This document shows positions 23,980-34,124 of a stretch of DNA of 64,000 bases, piece by piece. The stretch's first letter is position 1. Every line of letters starts with the position of its first letter. Below the pieces are notes generated by a model. The model saw nothing but the letters and a program-made list of their open reading frames with translations. It was not told the origin of the DNA and did no database searches. Position numbers and translations under genes: made by a program. The stretch comes from Emticicia sp. C21 (lineage in GTDB: Bacteria; Bacteroidota; Bacteroidia; Cytophagales; Spirosomataceae), in assembly GCF_003418935.1 (NCBI RefSeq), contig NZ_QVMT01000014.1, positions 27,143 to 91,142 of the forward strand, read 5' to 3'.

Positions 23980-24996
23980 ATGAGAAAATTAGCGAGTATT
24001 CAAAGAATTATCGCACTGGAGCCAATTGAGGGTGCCGATAATATCTTGAAAGCTAAAGTTCTGGGTTGGGAGCTTGTGACTAAAAAAGATGAATTTGCTG
24101 TAGGAGATTTGTGTATCTATTGCGAGGTCGACAGTTTGCTCCCGGATAAGCCAGAATTTGAGTTTTTGAAGTCAAAAAGTTTTCGTATCAAAACTATCAG
24201 GCTTCGTGGGCAAATCTCACAAGGAATTTGTTTCCCTTTGAGTTTCCTACCAGAAAATTTTGAAATCGAAGAGGGAGCAGATTGTACAGACGTATTGGGT
24301 ATTATCAAATATGAACCACAAATCCCTGCGAATCTGGTTGGTATAATGAAAGGAGGTTTTCCTTCATTTATTCCTAAAACTGATGAAACCAGGGTACAGA
24401 TTTTACAAAATGTATTGGCAAAATATAAGGGTGAAGCCTGCTATATTGCCGAAAAACTGGATGGTAGCTCAGCAACTTATTATATCAGAGATGGTGTATT
24501 CGGGGTATGTTCAAGGAATCTTGAAATTGAAGAGGACAACGAAAATACCTACTGGAAAGTGGCCAAAGTATTGAATATTGAGGAAAAGCTGAGGTCTTTG
24601 AATGGTAATTATGCTTTGCAGGGCGAGCTGGTAGGGGAGGGTGTTCAGTACAATAAGATGAAAATGAAGGGAAATACTGTATTCTTTTTCAACCTTTTTA
24701 AGATTGATACTTTTGAGTACGTTTCTTATGCCGATTTTATGCAACTGATGAAAGCACTGGAATTGCCAACTGTACCAGTATTGAATGATAACTTTATCTT
24801 GCCGAACAGCATTACCGACTTGGTGGAGATGTCAAAGATTAAGTCAACCATTCAACCGGCAATGTGGGCTGAGGGTATCGTCATCAGGCTTCTGAATGAG
24901 AAACTGGATAAAACTCTTTTGAGAGATTTGGGCGGACACGGACGGATTTCATTTAAGGTAATTAATCCGGAATTTTTGTTGAAATTTAACGAATAA
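23980..24996 (+). CDS. ATP-dependent RNA ligase, DRB0094/DraRnl-like (Rnl5-type)
   Basis: 338 aa. The N-terminal segment (KLASIQRIIALEPIEGADNILKAKVLGWELVTKK.EFAVGDL) matches the DraRnl N-terminal OB-like module. A KxDG adenylation motif follows (AEKLDGSS). Confidence 0.65.
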   Translation: MRKLASIQRIIALEPIEGADNILKAKVLGWELVTKKDEFAVGDLCIYCEVDSLLPDKPEFEFLKSKSFRIKTIRLRGQISQGICFPLSFLPENFEIEEGADCTDVLGIIKYEPQIPANLVGIMKGGFPSFIPKTDETRVQILQNVLAKYKGEACYIAEKLDGSSATYYIRDGVFGVCSRNLEIEEDNENTYWKVAKVLNIEEKLRSLNGNYALQGELVGEGVQYNKMKMKGNTVFFFNLFKIDTFEYVSYADFMQLMKALELPTVPVLNDNFILPNSITDLVEMSKIKSTIQPAMWAEGIVIRLLNEKLDKTLLRDLGGHGRISFKVINPEFLLKFNE

Positions 24997-25689: not shown

Positions 25690-26335
25690 CTATTAAATCA
25701 ACACAATACGCATGGAGAATTGCAGGAGTTGCTTGATGCTCCTGCTCCATGCAAACAACAAAAAGATAGCCTGAATGGACGAGGAGCTTGTCTTGAAAGC
25801 AAGTAATATTGAAAGGTGTTATAGGTTCGATTCCTATTGCCTCCGCAAAAATTAATAAGTAATACCGAGAGGTTTTTGGGCGGTCGCCGCGCGATTCGAT
25901 TCCTATTGCCTCTGCAAAATTAAATGAGCATGTACTCCAATCGGAAGAGAGAGCTGTCTCAGAAGCAGTTTAGTATTGGTTCGAATCCAATCATGCTTAC
26001 TAAATTCTAGCTTTTATAGCTGAATTTGTAAAAAAATAGGGAAAATAGTCCGTAAGTGGAAGCGGGGCGGTCTGTAAAACCGTTGCATTGTGCCTTGCAT
26101 GCGGCCGCCGCGCGGTTCGATTCATGCTTTTCCCACTATGGAGTTGATGAATCAGGGTAATTGCAATATTGCCGCAATTACCCTAGCTGCGACAGATTAT
26201 GCAGTTTGATTCATAATTTTTCAGTAAAAATAATAGAGAGTAAATCCTGCTGGGCAGGGCACTGCCTGCTACGCAGTTGGTTCATACATGAATGAAGTTC
26301 GAGTCTTCTGCTCTCTGCTGAGTGATGATTGTATT
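25690..26335 (+). ncRNA. cluster of degenerate tRNA-like / Y-RNA-like fragments (T-arm-containing remnants and stable hairpins)
   Basis: T-arm motifs: ATAGG-TTCGATT-CCTAT (25818-25834), a degenerate copy (~25893), ATTGG-TTCGAAT-CCAAT (~25975), GTTCGATTC (~26115) and GAAG-TTCGAGT-CTTC (~26296). A 14-bp interrupted hairpin lies at 25711-25753. A Tyr-like unit has a GGGAAAA/TTTTCCC acceptor. None of these folds as a full canonical tRNA. Confidence 0.4.
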
Positions 26336-26622: not shown

Positions 26623-27129
26623 ATGATACTTGCAGTAGATGTTTTTTATAAACAGAGTAGCGCTAAAATAGTAGGATTGATTTTTAATGATTGGAATGAT
26701 GCCAAATATGCCCAGAAAATTGAAAAGTTTAGAAACGATATAGCCGATTATGAGCCAGGGGCATTCTATAAACGAGAGTTGCCATGTATTATGGATATTC
26801 TCACAGACCTGGATCTGACACAACTGAAGTATATAATAGTAGATGGCTATGTATTTCTGGATGATGATGGGAAACCTGGACTAGGGGCGCATTTATATGA
26901 AGCACTACCAATAAAGGTTCCGATAATAGGTGTAGCTAAGACTTCTTTTGCCAACAATAAAAAGTACGTGGCGGAGGTATTTAGGGGCATAAGCCAGAAA
27001 CCATTGTTTATTACTGCCATAGGAGAGGATTTAACAAATGCTGCCGCTATGGTACACAGCATGTCTGGAGAATATCGCTTTCCGACTATGCTAAAAGAGC
27101 TGGACGACTTCACAAAAGTGATACGGTAG
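26623..27129 (+). CDS. nfi: endonuclease V-like protein (divergent)
   Basis: 168 aa. Conserved EndoV blocks are present with E. coli-like spacing: A-VDV (catalytic Asp), YEPGAFYKRE (the FRE block), IVDGYV (the VDG block), and PIIGVAKTSF (the GVAK block). The His-Pro-Arg block after the VDG motif is replaced. Confidence 0.55.
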   Translation: MILAVDVFYKQSSAKIVGLIFNDWNDAKYAQKIEKFRNDIADYEPGAFYKRELPCIMDILTDLDLTQLKYIIVDGYVFLDDDGKPGLGAHLYEALPIKVPIIGVAKTSFANNKKYVAEVFRGISQKPLFITAIGEDLTNAAAMVHSMSGEYRFPTMLKELDDFTKVIR

Positions 27130-27302
27130 TAACAGAATAAAAGTTTTTGGAAAATATTTTCAGTTGCAAATATTTGACTATCAGATGTTTGTCGTAATGC
27201 TAAGAGAATATTTTTTACTACGCAAAAAGACTGCGTAGGTGGTGTGAACTTTTGTAGCATCAAATTGATAATTAAGTTCTTTAATAATGATAAAAAGAAG
27301 TG

Positions 27303-27440
27303 CCGTAGAACAGAGTTACTTCGCTTTAGGAGCCGTGTGTCATTGGTTCGAATCCAATCTGCCTGACTAAATAAGTCATTCAGGCAGTAGCTCAGTCCGG
27401 TAGAGCAACGTAAAAGGCTCTTTTCGCTCTTTGCCTTCTT
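27303..27440 (+). ncRNA. circularly permuted tRNA-like module 1 (candidate YrlA-type Y RNA)
   Basis: Order along the strand: T-arm ATTGG-TTCGAAT-CCAAT (27342-27358); closed acceptor hairpin CTGCCTGA-13nt-TCAGGCAG (27359-27387); TA; D-arm GCTC-AGTCCGGTA-GAGC (27390-27406). The flanking helix GGAGCC (27329-34) / GGCTCT (27416-21) covaries with module 2. Confidence 0.45.
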
Positions 27441-27445
27441 TAAAA

Positions 27446-27521
27446 TCTGGGTGTTATGCAAATGGTTATACAACGGTGTTTTGGAGACATCGGTTCGCTG
27501 GTTCGAATCCAGCTACCCAGA
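27446..27521 (+). ncRNA. tRNA-like element (Pro-type TGG anticodon loop, irregular core)
   Basis: 7-bp acceptor TCTGGGT/ACCCAGA; D-arm TATG-CAAATGGT-TATA; anticodon arm GGTGT-TTTGGAG-ACATC; T-arm GCTGG-TTCGAAT-CCAGC. There are 4 extra nt between the D and anticodon stems. Confidence 0.4.
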
Positions 27522-27693
27522 CTATCAAGTGTCGTAGAGAAGTCATACCTCGTTCCAAGGGTTGAGATATAGGTAGTTACCGCAAGATACAAGTCCTATC
27601 TGCAAAGAATTGCAGTGGTCGATATTAAGACGCAACCGTGCTCATGAAAGATGAGCCCATAGCAGACTGCTCGCTTGTTACCTTGATTATTTC

Positions 27694-27783
27694 GCTCGGT
27701 TGGGCAAATTGGTTAAGCCGCCACTCTTTCACAGTGGAGATTACGGGTTCAACCGCGGTGGCGGACCACCCCCGTACCGAGTA
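27694..27783 (+). pseudogene. tRNA-Glu-like (TTC) element with a 16-nt hairpin insertion in the T-loop
   Basis: Acceptor GCTCGGT/ACCGAGT; 3-bp D-stem GGC/GCC; perfect anticodon arm CCACT-CTTTCAC-AGTGG; T-stem ACGGG/CCCGT enclosing a 23-nt loop that contains hairpin CCGC-GGTG-GCGG. Confidence 0.4.
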
Positions 27784-27814
27784 CATGAAGTTTTAAAATT
27801 TAACAGTTAATGCA

Positions 27815-28129
27815 ATGAAAAATGATGTTATCAGATATTTCTTGGTAAACTCTGAAGAGACCGGAAGACATATTGTCACTTCTTTCCGCACAGGCAGAAA
27901 ATATTATATTGAGCCTATCGGTAATGGAAGAATGGCAGATTGGGGAAGTTATAATCCAGGTACGGGTAATATAGAAAATAAGAAAGGAGCAGGAAAGCAC
28001 ACAGGCTCTGTTATGGCCGAAGATTCTGTAATTACACCAGAAAACGGATTCGTGAATATTCATTTGATTGAAAGCGGAAGTCCTTATTCAATCATTGATG
28101 AAATGGATGCAAAACATCCGAGTATATAA
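27815..28129 (+). CDS. hypothetical protein (within tRNA-like array)
   Basis: 104-aa ORF between tRNA-like modules with no recognisable motif. Whether it is really coding is uncertain. Confidence 0.3.
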   Translation: MKNDVIRYFLVNSEETGRHIVTSFRTGRKYYIEPIGNGRMADWGSYNPGTGNIENKKGAGKHTGSVMAEDSVITPENGFVNIHLIESGSPYSIIDEMDAKHPSI

Positions 28130-28142
28130 ATTAAAAATAAGC

Positions 28143-28275
28143 AAGTGTCGTAGACAAGAGATACTTCGCATTGATAACGCAGAGGTCGCACGTTCGAGTC
28201 GTGCATAGATTTCGGTCTATTAGCTCAGGTGGTTAGAGCACTTAAAAGCCTCTTTTCGCTATTTACCTTGCTTAT
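28143..28275 (+). ncRNA. circularly permuted tRNA-like module 2 (candidate YrlA-type Y RNA)
   Basis: T-arm GCACG-TTCGAGT-CGTGC (28188-28204); acceptor hairpin ATAGAT-TTCG-GTCTAT (28205-28220); TA; D-arm GCTC-AGGTGGTTA-GAGC (28223-28239). Flanking helix AGAGGT (28181-86) / GCCTCT (28248-53). Confidence 0.45.
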
Positions 28276-28284
28276 TTTTAAAAT

Positions 28285-28357
28285 GTTGCGATTAGTGTAG
28301 TGGTTTACACGAGGGCTTGTGGAGCCGTTAAGATGAGTTCGAATCTCATATCGCAAC
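28285..28357 (+). tRNA. tRNA-His (anticodon GTG) with encoded G-1 and C73
   Basis: G-1 at 28285; acceptor TTGCGAT/ATCGCAA; D-arm GTGT-AGTGGTTT-ACAC; anticodon loop TTGTGGA; T-arm ATGAG-TTCGAAT-CTCAT; discriminator C. There is one G-G mismatch in the anticodon stem. Confidence 0.7.
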
Positions 28358-28549
28358 CAATCAAATGCCATTGAATGGCTTTGGTTAATTACCCGATTAG
28401 GCAAATGCTGTGACTAAGCTGTGACTAATGCCTAATCAGGGTACAATGAGGTGCCGTAAAAAAGTGATACTTCGCTTGGTGACCAGAAGAAATTCTGGAA
28501 GGTTCGAATCCTTAAACACACTTTTTGCTTTTTGCCCTCATTTTAAGAT

Positions 28550-28622
28550 TACCTCATAGCTCAGTCGGTAGAGCAGCACCCTGTTAAGGTGATGGCCGTT
28601 GGTTCAACCCCAATTGAGGTAG
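28550..28622 (+). tRNA. tRNA-Asn (anticodon GTT)
   Basis: Acceptor TACCTCA/TGAGGTA; TA-GCTC-AGTCGGTA-GAGC; anticodon loop CTGTTAA; T-arm GTTGG-TTCAACC-CCAAT; discriminator G. Confidence 0.8.
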
Positions 28623-28649
28623 CATTTTTAGTCAATGCTGTGATTATAC

Positions 28650-28722
28650 AATCGGATCGTCTAATTGGTAAAGACATCGGGATTTGGCCCCGAAGATTGA
28701 GGTTCAAGTCCTTATCTGATTA
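28650..28722 (+). tRNA. tRNA-Gln (anticodon TTG)
   Basis: Acceptor AATCGGA/TCTGATT; D-arm GTCT-AATTGGTAA-AGAC; anticodon arm TCGGG-ATTTGGC-CCCGA; T-arm TGAGG-TTCAAGT-CCTTA. Confidence 0.8.
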
Positions 28723-28739
28723 CTGAATAGTTTATTTAT

Positions 28740-28813
28740 TACTTTGTAACTCAGTTGGTTAGAGTACCATCCTTTTAAGATGGGAGTCGTCAGTTCGAGC
28801 CTGACCAGAGTAA
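28740..28813 (+). tRNA. tRNA-Lys (anticodon TTT)
   Basis: Acceptor TACTTTG/CAGAGTA; TA-ACTC-AGTTGGTTA-GAGT; anticodon arm CCATC-CTTTTAA-GATGG; T-arm GTCAG-TTCGAGC-CTGAC. Confidence 0.8.
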
Positions 28814-28886
28814 CATCAGGTGCCGTGGATAAGGGTTACTTCGTCTCTAAAACTCTGTTGACTCTTATCGCTTATTGCCCTGAAAT

Positions 28887-28958
28887 GGTCTGATAACTCA
28901 GTGGTAGAGTTGTTTTCTGATACGAAACAGGTCGAAGGTTCGAATCCTTCTCAGACTA
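28887..28958 (+). tRNA. tRNA-Ile (anticodon GAT)
   Basis: Acceptor GGTCTGA/TCAGACT; TA-ACTC-AGTGGTA-GAGT; anticodon arm GTTTT-CTGATAC-GAAAC; T-arm GAAGG-TTCGAAT-CCTTC. Confidence 0.8.
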
Positions 28959-28978
28959 CAATGATTATTTGTTTTTAC

Positions 28979-29051
28979 TACTCTGTAGCTCAGTTGGAAG
29001 AGCGTCATCCTTCTAAGATGAGGGTAATTGGTTCGAATCCAATCAGGGTAA
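28979..29051 (+). tRNA. tRNA-Arg (anticodon TCT)
   Basis: Acceptor TACTCTG/CAGGGTA; TA-GCTC-AGTTGGAA-GAGC; anticodon arm TCATC-CTTCTAA-GATGA; T-arm ATTGG-TTCGAAT-CCAAT. Confidence 0.8.
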
Positions 29052-29187
29052 CATCAAGTGCCGTAGAGAAGAGTTACTTCGTCCGCTAATAGGGGAGGAA
29101 TAGCGAAGTTGTAAAATCAGCAAGACTATCCAGTTCGATTCTGGCTTTGACATGCCCCGTCACTCTTTTCGATTTTTGCCTTGAATT

Positions 29188-29259
29188 GGTTTGATAGCTC
29201 AATGGTAGAGCGGTTCTCTCATAAGGAACAGGCCGATAGTTCGATTCTATCTCAGACTA
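29188..29259 (+). tRNA. tRNA-Met/fMet-type (anticodon CAT)
   Basis: Acceptor GGTTTGA/TCAGACT; TA-GCTC-AATGGTA-GAGC; anticodon arm GTTCT-CTCATAA-GGAAC; T-arm GATAG-TTCGATT-CTATC. Could alternatively be the lysidine-modified Ile2 type. Confidence 0.75.
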
Positions 29260-29333
29260 CAAGTTTGGTGCATCAAATACTTCCTCTCAGAACGGTTCTG
29301 AGATGGCGTTATTCAAACAAAATTTTTTCAACC

Positions 29334-30854
29334 ATGAAATTCAATATTTTGAATCGTGAGAAAAATACAGTTATCAATCACGCAGGAGCTAAAGCTTATA
29401 CACTTACTCCAGCTATGGAACTATACACCAGCGTGGTAACGAGTATCCTGTCAGATACTTTCTATGAAAAGGCTGATGATCGTCTGGCTCGTATTCAGGC
29501 GCTCATCCGTAAAAACGATGCCCAATTTGTAGCAAAACTGGCTGTATATGCCCGTGAAAAAATGTACCTGCGTTCAATCCCTTTGGTATTGCTGACAGAG
29601 CTGGCGCAAACCCATAAAGGTGATAATCTGGTAAGCCGTACGGTTGGCCGTGTGATTCAGCGTGCTGACGAAATTACCGAATTGCTGGCTTGCTACCAGA
29701 TGGCTAACCAGCGTAAAGAAACCAAAAAACTGAACCGTTTGTCAAAACAGATTCAGAAAGGTCTGGCTGAGGCTTTCAATAAATTTGATGAATACCAGTT
29801 CAGCAAATACAACCGTACAGGTACTGATGTAAAACTGCGTGATGCCTTGTTTCTGGTTCACCCAAAGGCAAAAAATGAAGCACAGCAAGTCATTTTTAAC
29901 AAAATTGCTAAAGATGAACTGGTTACAGCTCAAACCTGGGAAACTACTTTGTCAGCCGTGGGTCAGAATGATTTTGATTCAGAAACTCATAAACTGGAAG
30001 CAAAATCACAGGCATGGGAGCAACTGATTCTTAATGGAAAACTAGGATACATGGCTATGCTGCGTAACCTGCGTAACATTATTGAAGCGAACGTAAGCCA
30101 GGAGGCTATCGAAAAAGTATGTGCTACTTTGAGCAATGCTCGTGCAGTAGCTAATGCTAAACAATTTCCTTTCCGTTTCTTGTCAGCTTACCGAGGGGTA
30201 AAGCATCTGCAAAACGGACGGGTAAGCAATATTCTGACTGCTTTAGAAACGGCCGTTCAGCATTCGGCGAATAATATCCGTGGTTTCGATGCTCGTACGC
30301 GTGTAGTAATTGCTGCCGACGTATCAGGTTCAATGCAACGGGCAATTTCTCCAAAAAGTACTGTTCAGAACTTTGATATCGGTTTGATGTTGGCCATGTT
30401 GCTGCAAAACCGTTGCGAGGATGTAGTAACAGGTATGTTTGGAGATACGTGGAAAATCATTAGCGTGCCAAAAAACAATATTCTGGCAAACGTATTGGAG
30501 TTCCATCGTCGTGAGGGGGAGGTAGGTTATTCAACCAACGGACATCTGGTAATTCAGGATTTGATTAACCGAAGAAAAAAAGTTGATAAAATCATGATTT
30601 TTACCGACTGTCAACTTTGGAACAGTAATGGTGGAAGCCCGATTGCTCAGGCATGGGCCGAATACAAAAAAATAGCACCAAATGCTCGTTTGTATTTGTT
30701 TGACTTGGCTGGATACGGAAATACTCCAGTTAATACAGTTAACGAGGGTTCTGTATTTCTGATGGCCGGATGGTCAGATAAAATTTTTGACATTCTTACA
30801 GCTATTGAAGAAGGAAGCAATGCAATTGCTGAAATCAATAAAATTGAAATTTAG
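29334..30854 (+). CDS. rsr: Ro60-related protein (Rsr; TROVE domain + vWA/MIDAS)
   Basis: The vWA MIDAS motif DVSGSM and the Ro60-like blocks KQFPFRFLSAY, LRDALFLVHPKA and IMIFTDCQLWN align with metazoan Ro60 (RIHPFHILVAL / LLRLSHIKP / IFIVFTDCETN). The start was moved to the ATG at 29334 (MKFNILNREK) because the upstream part of track ORF 29181 overlaps tRNA-Met. Confidence 0.85.
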   Translation: MKFNILNREKNTVINHAGAKAYTLTPAMELYTSVVTSILSDTFYEKADDRLARIQALIRKNDAQFVAKLAVYAREKMYLRSIPLVLLTELAQTHKGDNLVSRTVGRVIQRADEITELLACYQMANQRKETKKLNRLSKQIQKGLAEAFNKFDEYQFSKYNRTGTDVKLRDALFLVHPKAKNEAQQVIFNKIAKDELVTAQTWETTLSAVGQNDFDSETHKLEAKSQAWEQLILNGKLGYMAMLRNLRNIIEANVSQEAIEKVCATLSNARAVANAKQFPFRFLSAYRGVKHLQNGRVSNILTALETAVQHSANNIRGFDARTRVVIAADVSGSMQRAISPKSTVQNFDIGLMLAMLLQNRCEDVVTGMFGDTWKIISVPKNNILANVLEFHRREGEVGYSTNGHLVIQDLINRRKKVDKIMIFTDCQLWNSNGGSPIAQAWAEYKKIAPNARLYLFDLAGYGNTPVNTVNEGSVFLMAGWSDKIFDILTAIEEGSNAIAEINKIEI

Positions 30855-30979: not shown

Positions 30980-31112
30980 CGATAGAAACGTAGTTGAACC
31001 TGATGAGGGTTTCATTAAGGCCCCATAGTATTGGAGCAATTGCTTTCAATATGCTGTCAATGAGGGTTCTGTTAATTTATGTAGGTTCGAATCCTGCCAA
31101 GCTAATAAATAT

Positions 31113-31155
31113 GGGCTTGTCGTGTAATGGTTAACACAATGGACTTCCACTCCAT
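31113..31155 (+). pseudogene. 5' fragment of a tRNA-Gly-like (TCC) gene lacking a T-arm
   Basis: GGGCTTG-TC-GTGT-AATGGTTA-ACAC-A-ATGGA-CTTCCAC-TCCAT: acceptor 5' strand, perfect D-arm and anticodon arm. No TTCGA T-arm follows. Confidence 0.4.
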
Positions 31156-31453
31156 AATTTAGAAAACAAGTAAATCAGTCTGAAACTATTCGGGTGTTTT
31201 TACCTTCGCAAAAACACAGTTCAGTACAGACTTGCAAAGAGGAGGATACCGATAGATAGAGGTGATTGCTTCAATGCTGGCGACTACATATATTATAGGG
31301 TGGCTGTCTCGTGGTTACGAGAGACAAACAATTTAGAATTATAGACTAGCCCAAGGCTATTGAACCGATTATCGAAGTCCGTCTTAATCTGATTTCCGTT
31401 TCAATGAATCGGATAGTGTAAGACTGATTTTTAACAAAGTAATTATTAAAATC

Positions 31454-32548
31454 ATGAAAAATATACAAGTAAATGCCAATCAGGTAGCATTGGTTTTGAA
31501 AAATAAGGCTTTCAAGCGATTGCTTGGTGAGGGTTCTTATTGGTTTTGGGGAAATGAAGAAGTTTTTATATATGAGAAAGGAAATGCCTTTGCTGCTCCC
31601 GTTGAACTAAACGTGCTATTGCAACATCCTGAAATCACAGAGGCCTTGGATGTCATAGAGGTAAAAGATAATGAAATGATGGTTCAGTTTGAAGACAATC
31701 GCTTCAAAACTGTCTTTGGTCCGGGTAAATACGCTTTCTGGCGCGGTATTAAAAACTATACTTATACGGCTATTGATTTAAACAAAATCGAGATTACTGA
31801 AGATTTTAGCCCACAGCTAATCAGCACTAAATTATTGTCGTATGTGAGAAGTTATACTGTAGAGTCTTACGAAAAAGGAGTTTTGATTGTTGATGGTAAA
31901 TTTGTACGTGTGTTAGACGGAGGTACTTATTACTGGTGGAAAAATACCATCAGCATTCAGGTAGCTAAAGCGGATATGCGTCAATTGCAAATGGAGATTT
32001 CAGGACAGGAGATTCTGACGAAAGATAAAGCCAGCTTGCGTTTAAATGCCTTTGTGCAATATCGTATCACCGATATTGTGAAAGCGATGTATGAAAACAA
32101 AGACTACGAAAAACAAGTATATGTTGTATTGCAATTGGCTTTAAGAGAGTATATTGGTGGATTAACTTTGGACGAATTGCTGGATAAAAAAGATAGTATT
32201 GTGGATTTTGTATTGAAAAATACTGCCGACAAATTGGTAGGTTTGGGTATTGAAATCAAAGGCTGTGGTATCCGTGATATTATTTTACCCGGAGACATGA
32301 AAGATATCATGAATCAGGTATTGATGGCTGAGAAAAAAGCACAGGCCAATATCATTATGCCTAGGGAAGAAACCGCTTCTATGCGTAGCTTGTTGAACAC
32401 TGCCAAATTGATGGAAGAAAATGAAACCTTGTGGAAATTGAAAGAGATGGAATATGTAGAGAAAATCGCGGATAAAATCAATACTATTTCAGTTTCAGGC
32501 AATGGACAGATTCTCGACCAATTGAAGCAAATTTTTGTAAAAAATTAA
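31454..32548 (+). CDS. SPFH/band-7 domain protein with ~170-aa N-terminal extension
   Basis: The C-terminal half (QEILTKDKASLRLNAFVQYRITD...KGCGIRDIILPGDMKDIMNQVLMAEKKAQANII) is a typical SPFH/band-7 core. Confidence 0.7.
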   Translation: MKNIQVNANQVALVLKNKAFKRLLGEGSYWFWGNEEVFIYEKGNAFAAPVELNVLLQHPEITEALDVIEVKDNEMMVQFEDNRFKTVFGPGKYAFWRGIKNYTYTAIDLNKIEITEDFSPQLISTKLLSYVRSYTVESYEKGVLIVDGKFVRVLDGGTYYWWKNTISIQVAKADMRQLQMEISGQEILTKDKASLRLNAFVQYRITDIVKAMYENKDYEKQVYVVLQLALREYIGGLTLDELLDKKDSIVDFVLKNTADKLVGLGIEIKGCGIRDIILPGDMKDIMNQVLMAEKKAQANIIMPREETASMRSLLNTAKLMEENETLWKLKEMEYVEKIADKINTISVSGNGQILDQLKQIFVKN

Positions 32549-32597: not shown

Positions 32598-34124
32598 ATG
32601 GAAACAACGATTTCATTAGAAGAAATATTAGCATTAGGGAATATACCAGAAAACCTGCAAGGTAGTTTCCTGAGAATAGCTAACGGATTGCATCAAAAGG
32701 CTGAATATCCAAAAGAAAAGGTATTAAGAATGTTTGCTGAAATGTTGGCTAGCCCAAAGAAATTTGCCTATTCAAAAAATAAGGTAACTAACCTGGCAAA
32801 AGAGATTTTTGACCTAGAAAAGAAAGGGATGAAAGTCGAGCTTTCAGAAGAAGGCAAGACTTATTTACCTGCTGAGTCGCCTGTGTATGAGATGGAGGAA
32901 AAAGAAAAGCAAAAAACAGTTGCTTTTGATTTAAGAACATCTCCATTGCCATATCAGATTTACGGCGCTGAATATATCGAAGAGGGCGCATTGAAGCAAA
33001 TGGAAACTGCTTTGAGTTTGCCTGTGGCTGTAGCAGGTGCTTTAATGCCTGATGCCCATCAAGGCTATGGGCTACCTATCGGTGGTGTATTAGCTACGAC
33101 CAATAATACGGTTATTCCGTTTGCGGTCGAAGTAGACATTGCCTGCCGGATGTGTTTGTCAATTTTTGATATTCCAGGTGATTTTTTCAAACGTCAGCCG
33201 CATTTGCTGAAACGTGCTTTAGTAGAGAATACCAAGTTTGGTATGGGTGGAGAAACGGCTCACAAGTTTGATGAAAGTGTCATGGATAAAGCAGAATGGA
33301 CAGCCACAAAAATCATTCGTGATTTGAAAGATAAAGCTTATCGACAATTAGGTACCTCAGGTACTGGAAACCACTTTGTAGAGTGGGGTATTGTAGAGGT
33401 ATTTTCAGCTGATGATTTGCTGGCAGTACCTAAAGGCGAATATCTGGCGCTCCTATCTCATTCGGGTTCAAGAGGTTTTGGTGGGGCAGTAGCTAATCAT
33501 TATTCAAAAGTAGCTATGAAGAAAACCAAATTGCCAAAAGAGGCAGCTCATCTGGCATGGTTGGATATGAATACCGAAGAAGGGCAGGAGTATTGGATTG
33601 CTATGAATCTGGCAGGAGATTATGCTTCGGCCAATCACCACGAAATTCATAAGAAGATTGCTAAAATGTTGGGTGAACAACCTATAAAAATGGTTGAAAA
33701 TCACCACAATTTTGCCTGGAAAGAAAATTTGGCTGATGGTACAGAAGTAATTGTACATAGAAAAGGAGCAACACCTGCCAATCGCAATGACTTAGGGATT
33801 ATTCCTGGCTCTATGACTGACCCAGGCTTTATCGTTCGTGGTAAAGGTATAAGCGAATCATTAAATTCAGCTTCACATGGCGCAGGTCGTTTGATGTCGA
33901 GAACTAAAGCACTTAATTCTATAACTAATAGTGCCTTGAAAAAAGTATTAGAAGAAAAAGGAGTACAACTGATAGGTGGAGATTTAGATGAAGCACCAAT
34001 GGTTTATAAGAATATTGAAACGGTAATTGCTTCGCAAACCGATCTCGTAGAGATTTTGGCTAAGTTTAGCCCAAAGATTGTAAGGATGGCAGATGCCAAT
34101 CGCAAAGAAGGACGAGAGGATTGA
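32598..34124 (+). CDS. rtcB: RNA-splicing ligase RtcB family, with ~100-aa N-terminal extension
   Basis: RtcB hallmarks are present: MPDAHQGYGLPIGGV, DIACRMC, ENHHNFAWKE...VHRKGATPA and SHGAGR. Confidence 0.85.
   Translation: METTISLEEILALGNIPENLQGSFLRIANGLHQKAEYPKEKVLRMFAEMLASPKKFAYSKNKVTNLAKEIFDLEKKGMKVELSEEGKTYLPAESPVYEMEEKEKQKTVAFDLRTSPLPYQIYGAEYIEEGALKQMETALSLPVAVAGALMPDAHQGYGLPIGGVLATTNNTVIPFAVEVDIACRMCLSIFDIPGDFFKRQPHLLKRALVENTKFGMGGETAHKFDESVMDKAEWTATKIIRDLKDKAYRQLGTSGTGNHFVEWGIVEVFSADDLLAVPKGEYLALLSHSGSRGFGGAVANHYSKVAMKKTKLPKEAAHLAWLDMNTEEGQEYWIAMNLAGDYASANHHEIHKKIAKMLGEQPIKMVENHHNFAWKENLADGTEVIVHRKGATPANRNDLGIIPGSMTDPGFIVRGKGISESLNSASHGAGRLMSRTKALNSITNSALKKVLEEKGVQLIGGDLDEAPMVYKNIETVIASQTDLVEILAKFSPKIVRMADANRKEGRED

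What the first reader, a model, noticed from the sequence alone, without database searches (positions are those of the whole stretch)
27303..28275. Two circularly permuted tRNA-like modules (T-arm, closed acceptor hairpin, D-arm) with a covarying flanking helix: candidate YrlA-type Y RNAs
Module 1 (27342-27406) reads ATTGG-TTCGAAT-CCAAT | CTGCCTGA-loop-TCAGGCAG | TA | GCTC-AGTCCGGTA-GAGC. Module 2 (28188-28239) reads GCACG-TTCGAGT-CGTGC | ATAGAT-TTCG-GTCTAT | TA | GCTC-AGGTGGTTA-GAGC. Both have the tRNA element order rotated so that the acceptor stem is a closed hairpin and the position of the anticodon stem is open, bridged by a helix formed from the flanks. That flanking helix is GGAGCC/GGCTCT in module 1 and AGAGGT/GCCTCT in module 2, and it shows a compensatory C-G to G-C swap. 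This is the architecture reported for bacterial YrlA RNAs that bind Rsr, and an rsr gene lies about 1-2 kb downstream.
Basis: partly seen in the sequence, partly recalled or inferred. Interest (0 to 1): 0.85.

Follow-up and report, generated by a model that had tools for sequence, protein, structure and literature searches.

The report
Six phage Y RNAs among tRNAs
The two tRNA-like modules are real and are divergent YrlA-type Y RNA genes, probable RNA partners of the Ro60/Rsr protein encoded just downstream; they are two of six related small-RNA genes interleaved with tRNA genes in a probable phage RNA-repair region, which is a known kind of system in a poorly annotated variant.

Summary
At 27342-27406 and 28188-28239 (+) there is a T arm, a closed acceptor-like hairpin and a D arm. 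A TROVE/Ro60 (rsr) gene lies at 29334-30854. A covariance model built only from 23 homologues in other contigs scores the two modules 70.6 and 71.5 bits (E about 1e-17) across the whole window. In 25 homologues the T, acceptor and D helices covary and the 15:48 Levitt pair switches G:C to A:U without exception.

The YrlA reading is supported, with three corrections.
1. Its two 5' strands are not homologous positions. The real flanks are an 8-bp helix (P2) and a terminal helix (P1) around a conserved loop with GYCGUAG, one base from the published Rsr motif GNCGAA(N)G.
2. This stem occurs six times (27294-29184). Only two copies carry the full tRNA mimic.
3. Each copy ends 3-7 nt before a tRNA gene.

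The same architecture is found next to rsr, on the same strand, in at least 17 viral and 48 bacterial (mostly Bacteroidota) loci. Rfam's YrlA model does not reach its threshold on any tested locus. Verdict: new variant of a known kind. Rsr binding and expression are inferred, not shown.

The parts
27294..27441 (+). Element a: Y RNA-like gene with a full tRNA mimic (148 nt). P1 is 27294-27300 with 27435-27441, bulged U at 27301, G-C and C-G pairs 27302-27303 with 27433-27434. The 5' loop is CGUA; the 3' loop is G plus CUCUUU (27426-27432). P2 is 27308-27315 with 27418-27425. UUACUUCG lies at 27316-27323.
27302..27308 (+). GCCGUAG, the presumed Rsr-recognition motif of element a (published consensus GNCGAAN0-1G). 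The same motif starts at 27531, 28147, 28453 (GCCGUAA), 28822 (GCCGUGG) and 29060.
27342..27358 (+). T arm of element a (ATTGG TTCGAAT CCAAT)
27359..27387 (+). Closed acceptor-like (AS) hairpin of element a: 8 bp with a 13-nt loop
27390..27406 (+). D arm of element a (GCTC AGTCCGGTA GAGC), preceded by U8-A9-like TA at 27388-27389
27329..27334 (+). This is an alternative pairing that competes with P2 and is not conserved in homologues.
27524..27687 (+). Element b: the same P1/loop/P2 stem (P2 is 27537-27544 with 27665-27672) around a 116-nt apical domain with no tRNA-like arms. It starts 1 nt after tRNA-Pro.
28134..28278 (+). Element c: Y RNA-like gene with a full tRNA mimic. P1 is up to 12 bp (28134-28145 with 28267-28278), bulged U at 28146, G-U with A-C, P2 is 28153-28160 with 28250-28257, AUACUUCG at 28161-28168.
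28188..28204 (+). T arm of element c
28205..28220 (+). Closed acceptor-like hairpin of element c (6 bp, UUCG loop)
28223..28239 (+). D arm of element c, preceded by TA at 28221-28222
28181..28186 (+). It is part of the conserved ..GAGAGGUC (end of the V hairpin plus the variable loop), not a conserved helix strand.
28445..28542 (+). Element d: the same stem (A6-U pair replaces G6-C). The apical part is one hairpin plus a T-arm-like hairpin (AAGGTTCGAATCCTT).
28816..28883 (+). Element e: minimal 68-nt form (P1, loop, P2, apical loop). It starts 1 nt after tRNA-Lys.
29054..29184 (+). Element f: the same stem. The apical domain has a T-arm-like hairpin (CCAGTTCGATTCTGG). It starts 1 nt after tRNA-Arg.
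29334..30854 (+). rsr (Ro60/TROVE plus vWA), 506 aa. The closest solved structure is the Ro60 of Thermus phage phiLo (9KOP/9L5Y).
27447..27522 (+). tRNA-Pro, 5 nt after element a. The other downstream partners are tRNA-Glu 27694-27767 (after b), tRNA-His 28286-28358 (after c), tRNA-Asn 28550-28623 (after d), tRNA-Ile 28887-28959 (after e) and tRNA-Met 29188-29260 (after f).

Best explanation
Window 27294-29184 encodes six paralogous Y RNAs of 68 to 164 nt for the Rsr (Ro60) protein encoded at 29334-30854.

Architecture (shown by covariation). Each RNA closes on itself through a terminal helix P1, a bulged U and two further pairs (G-C, N-N'). A conserved asymmetric internal loop follows, with CGUA on the 5' side and G plus a 6-nt U-rich strand on the 3' side. 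Then come an 8-bp helix P2 and an invariant (U/A)UACUUCG.

Rsr binding (inferred). This stem presents GYCGUAG, the local form of the GNCGAA motif that Ro60 proteins contact. I infer that this is where Rsr binds.

Apical modules (shown). Elements a and c are near-complete tRNA mimics: T arm, closed acceptor stem, U8-A9, D arm and the Levitt pair. That is the YrlA type. Elements d and f keep only a T-arm-like hairpin, b has an unrelated 116-nt module, and e is minimal.

Processing (inferred). All six lie 3-7 nt upstream of a tRNA gene, and three start 1 nt after one. All genes in the region are on the + strand and no promoter or terminator signal stands out. The RNAs are therefore most likely cut out of a polycistronic tRNA transcript: RNase P would make their 3' side and tRNA 3'-end processing their 5' side.

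Function (inferred by analogy with D. radiodurans, S. Typhimurium and Thermus phage phiLo). The stem would gate the Rsr ring, and the different apical modules would tether it to partners such as host PNPase or proteins that bind the tRNA elbow. The setting is a probable phage RNA-repair and tRNA island carrying a DRB0094-type RNA ligase, an EndoV-like protein, RtcB and 15 tRNAs.
For: Presence and significance:
- The Rfam YrlA core matches both modules.
- The leave-out model R2 gives 70.6 and 71.5 bits, E about 1e-17.
- The tight 5' motif occurs exactly six times in 64 kb, all on the + strand, against 0.8 expected by shuffling. The repeat finder independently finds the six-copy family.

Structure:
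- tRNA-like core, 25 sequences: 95.4% of cells paired against 71.7% shuffled, covariation score 0.679 against 0.192 (0 of 500 shuffles). Pairs with double changes: AS 7 of 7, T 4 of 5, D 3 of 4, P2 6 of 8.
- 15:48 is G:C in 20 and A:U in 5, with no exception. U8:A14 holds in 25 of 25.
- Shared stem, 59 sequences: 91.9% paired against 57.2% shuffled, score 0.923 against 0.222, slide controls at most 0.22, 17 of 18 pairs with double changes.

Link to Rsr:
- Of 23 viral loci found by RNA motif alone that hold a validated element, 17 hold a TROVE gene on the same strand.
- In 80 bacterial loci, 48 of 57 with elements hold a TROVE gene, all on the same strand. Only 1 of 23 without elements does.
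- The Rsr is closest to phiLo Ro60 (E 1e-27), which binds two phage-encoded Y RNA-like RNAs that carry CGAA in a stem-bulge-stem.
- The published YrlA signatures GNCGAAN0-1G and YUAY match with one substitution.

Context: tRNA adjacency is 6 of 6.
Against: - Below Rfam's gathering score (39 against 69 bits), and the Rfam Rsr-stem positions do not align.
- The motif is GNCGUAG, not GNCGAA. In the Rfam consensus that motif is drawn inside a helix, whereas here it is partly in an internal loop.
- Single-sequence MFE folds are unimpressive (z from -0.7 to -2.8). They do not recover the full T/AS/D junction in a, and only T plus AS in c.
- No promoter or terminator signal stands out.
- There are no expression or binding data. 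The element set was selected for pairing, with a false-partner rate of about 3.7% in shuffles.
- Tight tRNA interleaving is not general in relatives: 11 of 66 elements.
Confidence: 0.78

Rival explanations
1. Elements a and c are true circularly permuted pre-tRNA genes, as in Cyanidioschyzon merolae. The ends held together by P1 and P2 would be cut and ligated (for example by the RtcB encoded 3.4 kb downstream) and the closed acceptor loop opened by RNase P and RNase Z, giving a working tRNA.
For: - All tRNA elements are present. In relatives the hairpin before the T arm has a 5-bp stem and a 7-nt loop, often with U at the second position, followed by a 5-nt AGGUC 'variable loop'. The tandem tRNA-Ile/tRNA-Arg pair aligns its anticodon arm to this hairpin.
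- RtcB is nearby.
- M. smegmatis YrlA is cut by RNase P and receives CCA.
- The resemblance to permuted pre-tRNAs is noted in the literature.
Against: - In the window copies that hairpin is degenerate: about 3 of 5 pairs in a, and no clear 5-bp stem in c.
- Its stem sequence (UUCGN/N'CGAG) and its loop ends (UAA or GGA) are conserved across lineages, not varied as in isoacceptors.
- D and T stems are nearly invariant, as in YrlA.
- The same outer stem carries non-tRNA modules in b, d, e and f.
- I saw no bulge-helix-bulge motif at the junction by eye, and no CCA in the acceptor loops.
- The elements track rsr. No RtcB homologue was detected in any of the 54 related viral loci.
Confidence: 0.04
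2. The modules are decaying remnants of tandem tRNA genes (T arm of one, D arm of the next) with no function of their own, and the repeated flanks are hitch-hiking spacer duplicates.
For: - They sit in a tRNA cluster.
- Tandem tRNAs do score with the models (36.8 and 42.6 bits at about 28.8-29.0 kb).
- tRNA plus element units e and f are segmental duplicates (D3 and D5).
- A dimeric-tRNA origin is the published model for YrlA.
Against: - The acceptor hairpin is closed by 4-13 nt, which leaves no room for two genes.
- Compensatory changes in every helix across 25-59 homologues show selection on structure.
- The Levitt pair covaries.
- The architecture is kept across phage and bacterial loci whose Rsr proteins are 26-60% identical to the window's.
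Confidence: 0.04
3. The six stems are real structured RNAs but are not Rsr ligands. They could be processing or stability modules of the tRNA operon, or ligands of another locus protein such as the RNA ligase, RtcB or the EndoV-like protein.
For: - Every window copy abuts a tRNA.
- The invariant UACUUCG and the 3' U-rich loop have no counterpart in the published Rsr-site description.
- The motif differs from CGAA.
- Binding is untested.
Against: - In most relatives the elements are not next to tRNAs: 55 of 66 have none within 12 nt downstream.
- They are next to rsr on the same strand.
- No RtcB homologue was detected in any related viral locus.
- The stem-bulge-stem with a CG(A/U)A loop is the layout shown to bind a phage Ro60.
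Confidence: 0.1

Closest known systems
YrlA (Y RNA-like A; Rfam RF02553; S. Typhimurium, M. smegmatis, mycobacteriophages; Chen et al. 2014, PMC4201824; structure in Wang et al. 2018, bioRxiv 10.1101/312249)
   Same: - Encoded within 4 kb of rsr on the same strand.
- 5' and 3' ends pair into a long stem with the Ro-site motif near the 5' end.
- The order is T arm, closed acceptor-like stem, UA, D arm.
- The T-loop, D-loop, U8:A14 and 15:48 tertiary signature is kept.
- There is a YUAY-like motif.
- Reported in phages and next to tRNAs.
   Different: - Scores 39 bits against Rfam's threshold of 69, and only model positions 23-87 align.
- The motif is GNCGUAG, sitting partly in a conserved 4 x 7 internal loop between two covarying helices.
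- There is an invariant UACUUCG after P2.
- Relatives keep an anticodon-arm-like hairpin plus a 5-nt variable loop before the T arm instead of the 4-bp P3 of the Rfam consensus.
- Elements occur in arrays of 2-7.
YrlB (S. Typhimurium) and Yrl1/Yrl2 of Thermus phage phiLo (PMC12135203)
   Same: - Shorter Y RNAs encoded beside rsr. phiLo Yrl1 and Yrl2 are described as a stem-bulge-stem with a CGAA motif; YrlB carries the GNCGAAN0-1G motif.
- phiLo Yrl1 and Yrl2 lie upstream of the phage Ro60 gene and bind it in EMSA and cryo-EM.
- The window Rsr's closest solved relative is that protein.
- Elements b, d, e and f fit this class.
   Different: - CGUA instead of CGAA.
- Six copies instead of two.
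- Binding is untested.
Deinococcus radiodurans Yrn1 and metazoan Y RNAs
   Same: Modular logic: a conserved Ro-binding stem with a bulge, plus a variable effector module. Several paralogous Y RNAs serve one Ro protein.
   Different: Different motif (GGUCCGA with a bulged C in metazoa). Yrn1 has the T and D arms in the other orientation. Metazoan Y RNAs have no tRNA-like domain.
Circularly permuted tRNA genes (Cyanidioschyzon merolae and others)
   Same: The 3' half precedes the 5' half. [quoted passage not shown]
   Different: Those mature into tRNAs through a circular intermediate made at a bulge-helix-bulge junction (my own knowledge; only states that they are processed to mature tRNAs). Here the outer stem is a conserved protein-site-like module shared with non-tRNA paralogues, and the window copies lack a sound anticodon arm.

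Membership tests
YrlA sensu Chen et al. 2014 | Encoded within 4 kb of a Ro60/Rsr orthologue, on the same strand | tested here: met
   Elements lie at 27294-29184 (+) and rsr at 29334-30854 (+). The same holds in 17 viral and 48 bacterial loci.
YrlA sensu Chen et al. 2014 | GNCGAAN0-1G motif near the 5' end (presumed Rsr site) | tested here: not met
   All six copies have G(C/U)CGU(A/G)(G/A), that is GNCGUAG with U where the consensus has A. At least 90% of the 59 aligned relatives have U there. This is a one-base variant, not the literal motif.
YrlA sensu Chen et al. 2014 | Conserved YUAY after the 5' stem strand | tested here: met
   UUAC in a, e and f; AUAC in b, c and d. UAC is invariant in all 59 sequences.
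YrlA sensu Chen et al. 2014 | T-arm-like and D-arm-like stem-loops with an AS stem-loop between them, in the order T, AS, D | tested here: met
   Elements a and c. Helices are 96.6-100% paired with compensatory changes in 25 homologues. Not met by b, d, e and f, which therefore are not YrlA proper.
YrlA sensu Chen et al. 2014 | tRNA tertiary signature, including a covarying Levitt pair G15:C48 or A15:U48 | tested here: met
   G:C in 20 and A:U in 5, with no exceptions. U8:A14 in 25 of 25. T loop UUCGAAU or UUCGAGU; GG in the D loop.
Rfam RF02553 (YrlA) | Bit score at or above the gathering threshold (69) | tested here: not met
   39.5 and 38.8 bits on model positions 23-87 only, and no hit at gathering. 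None reach threshold in 13 viral or 18 bacterial relatives' loci either. In E-value mode, six YrlA matches in viral and cultured-phage loci also stayed below threshold, at 32.6-52.3 bits.
Y RNA (functional definition) | Physically bound by Ro60/Rsr | not testable with these tools
   Needs EMSA, RIP-seq or CLIP. Only genomic association and motif similarity are available.
Y RNA (functional definition) | Expressed as a discrete small RNA | not testable with these tools
   No transcriptome is available. Processing by the tRNA-processing enzymes is inferred from the 3-7 nt spacing to tRNAs.
Circularly permuted tRNA gene | Intact anticodon arm, plus a junction motif that allows end-joining to a circular intermediate | tested here: inconclusive
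   An anticodon-arm-like hairpin is present in relatives (86% paired, inner pair covaries) but is degenerate in window a and c. I saw no bulge-helix-bulge motif by eye. Maturation cannot be tested.

The most novel reading that the evidence does not exclude
The array is a toolkit of interchangeable adaptors for one phage Ro60 ring. Six RNAs share the Rsr-docking stem but carry graded apical modules: a full tRNA mimic, a T arm only, an unrelated domain, or none. They would be released stoichiometrically with the phage's own tRNAs. Different adaptors would direct Rsr, with host PNPase or the phage RNA ligases, to different damaged RNAs, or would decoy host tRNA-targeting defence nucleases. The locus, including the separate permuted T/acceptor/D/anticodon(UCC) unit at 31076-31172, would also be a living series of intermediates for the proposed birth of Y RNAs from dimeric tRNA transcripts.
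Probability: 0.15. Interest if true: 0.7.

Novelty: new variant of a known kind. Interest (0 to 1): 0.45.

Why it matters
Y RNAs and Ro60 are conserved from bacteria to humans, yet the role of the tRNA-like module and the rules of Ro recognition in bacteria remain open.

- **A large unannotated lineage.** The window belongs to a YrlA-like lineage with at least 66 elements in phage contigs and 182 in 57 bacterial loci, mostly Bacteroidota. Rfam's threshold missed it in every locus tested, and tRNA finders sometimes call these elements tRNAs.
- **A sharper structural definition.** The lineage gives a two-helix stem with a conserved asymmetric loop, backed by heavy covariation.
- **A natural series of modules.** The apical modules vary on one constant docking stem.
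- **Tractable relatives.** Cultured relatives exist in which binding and function could be tested.
- **Annotation.** Six genes, and similar unannotated arrays upstream of TROVE genes in deposited phage genomes, should be labelled as ncRNA rather than left as intergenic gaps or as doubtful ORFs such as 26847-27473 (-).

Tried and rejected
- **Rfam at gathering score.** Only tRNAs were found in the window, in 13 related viral loci and in 18 bacterial loci, so the family cannot be assigned by Rfam's own rule.
Tested in both registers on homologues and rejected. Energy evaluation shows it is only a competing local pairing: weaker than P2 in c, comparable in a.
- **Single-sequence MFE folding.** It recovers P1 and mostly P2, but not the full tRNA-like junction. 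z-scores are weak, so it is not decisive either way.
- **Promoter and terminator scans.** Nothing above shuffles.
- **DNA similarity to GenBank phages.** Only tRNA-sized matches. The best Rsr protein matches in annotated phages are at most 35% identical.
- **Coding alternatives.** The minus-strand ORF 26847-27473 and the + ORF 27815-28129 have no PHROG match. ORF 27815-28129 also has no Pfam match.
- **Pairing of the 5' C-G with the 3' C-G, as in the Rfam P1.** Rejected, because the 3' C covaries with position 6: G6-C becomes A6-U in element d and in 5 of 59 sequences.
- **Homologues of the extra permuted unit at 31076-31172.** An exact 19-mer scan returned only ordinary tRNAs.
- **Literature.** Two Y RNA reviews and the supplement of Chen 2014 are not held. 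I could not check whether individual Bacteroidota or phage arrays were already listed there.
Full report
**1. What is in the sequence**

The stretch 25.9-31 kb of the window is a + strand cluster of tRNA genes. Rfam and ARAGORN 15.
- Module 1: T arm 27342-27358, closed 8-bp hairpin 27359-27387, TA, D arm 27390-27406.
- Module 2: T arm 28188-28204, 6-bp hairpin with a UUCG loop 28205-28220, TA, D arm 28223-28239.

ORF 29181-30854 matches Pfam TROVE (E 1.8e-25) and the Ro60 vWA domain. Its real start is most likely the in-frame ATG at 29334, because tRNA-Met occupies 29188-29260.

The surrounding genes are:
- a DRB0094-type RNA ligase at 23980-24996, which scores above the NCBIfam cut-off;
- an EndoV-like protein at 26623-27129;
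- a Band 7 protein at 31454-32548;
- RtcB at 32598-34124.

The replicon looks like a divergent large phage; this is an inference.
- One tail-lysin PHROG matches and most ORFs are orphans.
- The nearest Rsr genes lie in IMG/VR contigs, at up to 60% identity.
- Annotated phages reach at most 35% identity.

**2. Are the modules more than chance?**

Rfam's YrlA model does not reach its gathering score of 69 bits. In E-value mode it matches both modules at 39.5 and 38.8 bits (E 8e-7 and 1.3e-6). Only the tRNA-like core aligns, model positions 23-87 of 114.

I built a covariance model (R1) from 20 homologous cores and collected 25 strong matches in 20 contigs. A second model (R2) used only the 23 sequences from outside the window. 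Across all 64 kb and both strands it scores element c at 71.5 bits (E 2.5e-17) and element a at 70.6 bits (E 4.1e-17). The next hits are junctions of tandem tRNAs, the artefact that Chen et al. warned about. The window modules cannot be that artefact, because their acceptor hairpins are closed by 4 and 13 nt.

**3. Structure of the tRNA-like core**

On the 25-sequence alignment, 95.4% of cells pair against 71.7% in shuffles. The covariation score is 0.679 against 0.192 (0 of 500 shuffles), and the slide controls are at most 0.15.

| Helix | Cells paired | Pairs with changes on both sides |
|---|---|---|
| AS | 96.6% | 7 of 7 |
| T | 99.2% | 4 of 5 |
| D | 100% | 3 of 4 |

The tertiary Levitt pair is G15:C48 in 20 sequences and A15:U48 in 5, with no exception. 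U8:A14 is invariant. This is the signature that defines YrlA.

**4. The flanks**

They fail in homologues.
- The module-1 register is 46.2% paired, against 45.3% in shuffles.
- The module-2 register is 52.4% paired, against 55.3% in shuffles.
- The two 5' strands are 7 and 1 nt from the T stem, so they are not the same alignment columns.

AGAGGUC is a conserved sequence in its own right: the end of a hairpin plus a 5-nt variable loop. It happens to complement the window's P2 strand.

A constrained fold of a does use a reader-like helix, so it may be an alternative conformer there.

**5. The real outer stem, and four more genes**

The sequence GTGYCGTARA occurs at 27300, 27529, 28145, 28451 and 29058, with a one-mismatch copy at 28820. 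A 3' motif TTTCGCTNTTTRCCTT follows each one. A tighter 18-nt pattern hits exactly these six sites, all on the + strand, against 0.8 expected from shuffles. The repeat finder reports the same six-copy family (D2).

All six fold into one architecture:
- P1 of 5-12 bp;
- a bulged U;
- a G-C pair and an N-N' pair, with C:G, U:A, G:C and A:U all seen;
- an internal loop, CGUA on the 5' side and G plus 6 nt on the 3' side;
- P2 of 8 bp;
- (U/A)UACUUCG.

On 59 such elements from the window and viral contigs, 91.9% of cells pair against 57.2% in shuffles. The covariation score is 0.923 against 0.222 (0 of 500), the slide controls are at most 0.22, and 17 of 18 pairs show double changes. The element finder picks a false partner in 3.7% of shuffled trials, against 51% of real sites.

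MFE folds recover P1 in all six and P2 in five.

| Element | Coordinates | Apical module |
|---|---|---|
| a | 27294-27441 | full tRNA mimic |
| b | 27524-27687 | unrelated 116-nt domain |
| c | 28134-28278 | full tRNA mimic |
| d | 28445-28542 | hairpin plus T arm |
| e | 28816-28883 | minimal |
| f | 29054-29184 | T arm |

**6. Link to Rsr**

GNCGUAG differs by one base from GNCGAAN0-1G, the motif Chen et al. relate to the Ro60 contact site. UUAC fits their YUAY.

The genomic association is strong.
- An exact-pattern scan of IMG/VR returned 40 contigs.
- Of the 23 loci among them with a validated element, 17 carry a TROVE gene in the fetched stretch, always on the same strand.
- A scan of GTDB genomes stopped at its 120-locus limit. 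The hits are mostly Bacteroidota.
- In 80 of these loci, 57 hold validated elements: 182 in all, 2-7 per locus in 51 of them, 65 of them tRNA-like.
- Of those 57, 48 have a TROVE gene, all on the same strand. Only 1 of the 23 loci without an element does.
- R2 finds 69 tRNA-like members there at 50-81 bits, so the window copies are typical.
- None of 18 such loci reaches Rfam's YrlA threshold, and a few elements are scored as weak tRNAs.

The window Rsr is closest, among solved structures, to the Ro60 of Thermus phage phiLo (E 1e-27). That protein binds two phage-encoded Y RNA-like RNAs of stem-bulge-stem form with CGAA in the bulge, and forms a complex with host PNPase.

Deposited phage genomes show the same arrays in unannotated gaps upstream of their TROVE genes.
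- Xanthomonas phage MET23-P3 has R1 matches of 102, 61 and 27 bits, and about five elements by eye.
- Brevundimonas phage Bambus has three matches.

**7. Processing and mechanism (inferred)**

Each window element ends 3-7 nt before a tRNA (Pro, Glu, His, Asn, Ile, Met). Elements b, e and f begin 1 nt after a tRNA. No promoter or terminator signal exceeds chance. Release by RNase P and tRNA 3'-end processing from one long transcript is the simplest reading.

This interleaving is a feature of the window rather than of the family, seen in 11 of 66 elements elsewhere. Units [tRNA-Lys | e | tRNA-Ile] and [tRNA-Arg | f | tRNA-Met] are 76-80% identical, so the array grew by segmental duplication.

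By analogy with characterised systems, the stem would dock and gate Rsr, and the apical modules would recruit partners. The tRNA-elbow mimic is the candidate site for an unknown tRNA-binding factor. None of this was tested here.

**8. Comparison with what is known, and novelty**

Several features are already published:
- YrlA next to rsr;
- YrlA in phages;
- YrlA adjacent to tRNAs;
- its resemblance to permuted pre-tRNAs;
- a dimeric-tRNA origin model.

The features new or different here are:
- the GNCGUAG loop between two covarying helices, with a conserved 3' strand;
- the invariant UACUUCG;
- retention in relatives of an anticodon-arm-like hairpin plus a 5-nt variable loop, where Rfam draws a 4-bp P3;
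- arrays of 2-7 elements with graded apical modules;
- the strict tRNA alternation in this window;
- the failure of Rfam's threshold on every locus of this lineage that I tested.

Two literal membership criteria fail: the Rfam gathering score and the exact motif. I therefore file the elements as a new variant of a known kind, not as a plain member.

I could not read the supplement of Chen 2014 or the two reviews. Some of these loci may already be listed there.

**9. Verdict**

- Confidence that a and c are YrlA-type Y RNA genes is about 0.85.
- Confidence that all six are Rsr ligands processed with the tRNAs is about 0.75.
- The overall figure reported for the best explanation is 0.78.
- Interest is moderate (0.45).

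Noticed in passing
window 31076-31172 (+): A third permuted tRNA-like unit lies downstream of rsr and tRNA-Asp. It has a T arm (GUAGG-UUCGAAU-CCUGC), a closed acceptor hairpin (CAAGCU...GGCUUG), a D arm (GUGU-AAUGGUUA-ACAC) and then an anticodon arm with UCC (Gly) after the D arm, all closed by a 5-bp helix UUCUG/UAGAA. It has no GNCGUAG or UACUUCG stem. R2 scores it 26.8 bits. Rfam tRNA scores 25.9 bits for an alternative T-armless reading. None of the 15 called tRNAs is tRNA-Gly. An exact 19-mer scan of viral contigs found only ordinary tRNAs.
   Followed up: partly
window 25780-25925, 26040-26140, 26230-26330 (+): Several T-arm-plus-acceptor-3'-end-like sequences, for example two near-identical copies of TTCGATTCCTATTGCCTC(C/T)GCAAAA, are called as tRNAs by neither ARAGORN nor Rfam. 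They may be odd tRNA-like genes or debris between tRNA-Leu and tRNA-Phe (D4 and D8).
   Followed up: no
window 28385-28440 (+): A long imperfect hairpin (TACCCGATTAGGCA ... TGCCTAATCAGGGTA) has a tandem GCTGTGACTAA repeat (two copies) in its loop. It lies between tRNA-His and element d. A related TGCTGTGATTATAC follows tRNA-Asn at about 28637.
   Followed up: no
window 28761-29083 and 28861-29262 (+): The tRNA plus Y units are segmental duplicates. [tRNA-Lys 3' half + e 5' part] against [tRNA-Arg 3' half + f 5' part] is 76% identical over 85 nt. [e 3' end + tRNA-Ile] against [f 3' end + tRNA-Met(CAU)] is 80% identical over 101 nt, so the 'tRNA-Met' may be an Ile-type CAU tRNA (D3 and D5).
   Followed up: no
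L055 2350-2960 (Xanthomonas phage MET23-P3, OK913680.1) and L056 3294-3907 (Brevundimonas phage Bambus, ON529853.1): Deposited phage genomes carry unannotated tandem arrays of the same Y-like elements in the gap upstream of their TROVE gene. The Xanthomonas copies use GGUGUAG or GGUGAAG in place of GNCGUAG.
   Followed up: partly
L056 7756-8013 (Brevundimonas phage Bambus): A permuted tmRNA (Rfam RF04321, 57.9 bits, above threshold) lies about 2.5 kb downstream of the TROVE gene and is not annotated in the record.
   Followed up: no
L112 4668-4735 and 5756-5823, L133 5337-5477, L120 1280-1333 (bacterial loci): Rfam's tRNA model just passes its threshold on stretches that overlap the Y-like elements, and ARAGORN called tRNA-Thr and tRNA-Lys over elements in L003 and L008. 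Members of this family are probably annotated in places as tRNAs or pseudo-tRNAs.
   Followed up: no
window 27815-28129 (+): A 104-aa ORF with no Pfam or PHROG match sits inside the array, between tRNA-Glu and element c. It is the only protein-coding candidate between 27129 and 29334.
   Followed up: partly
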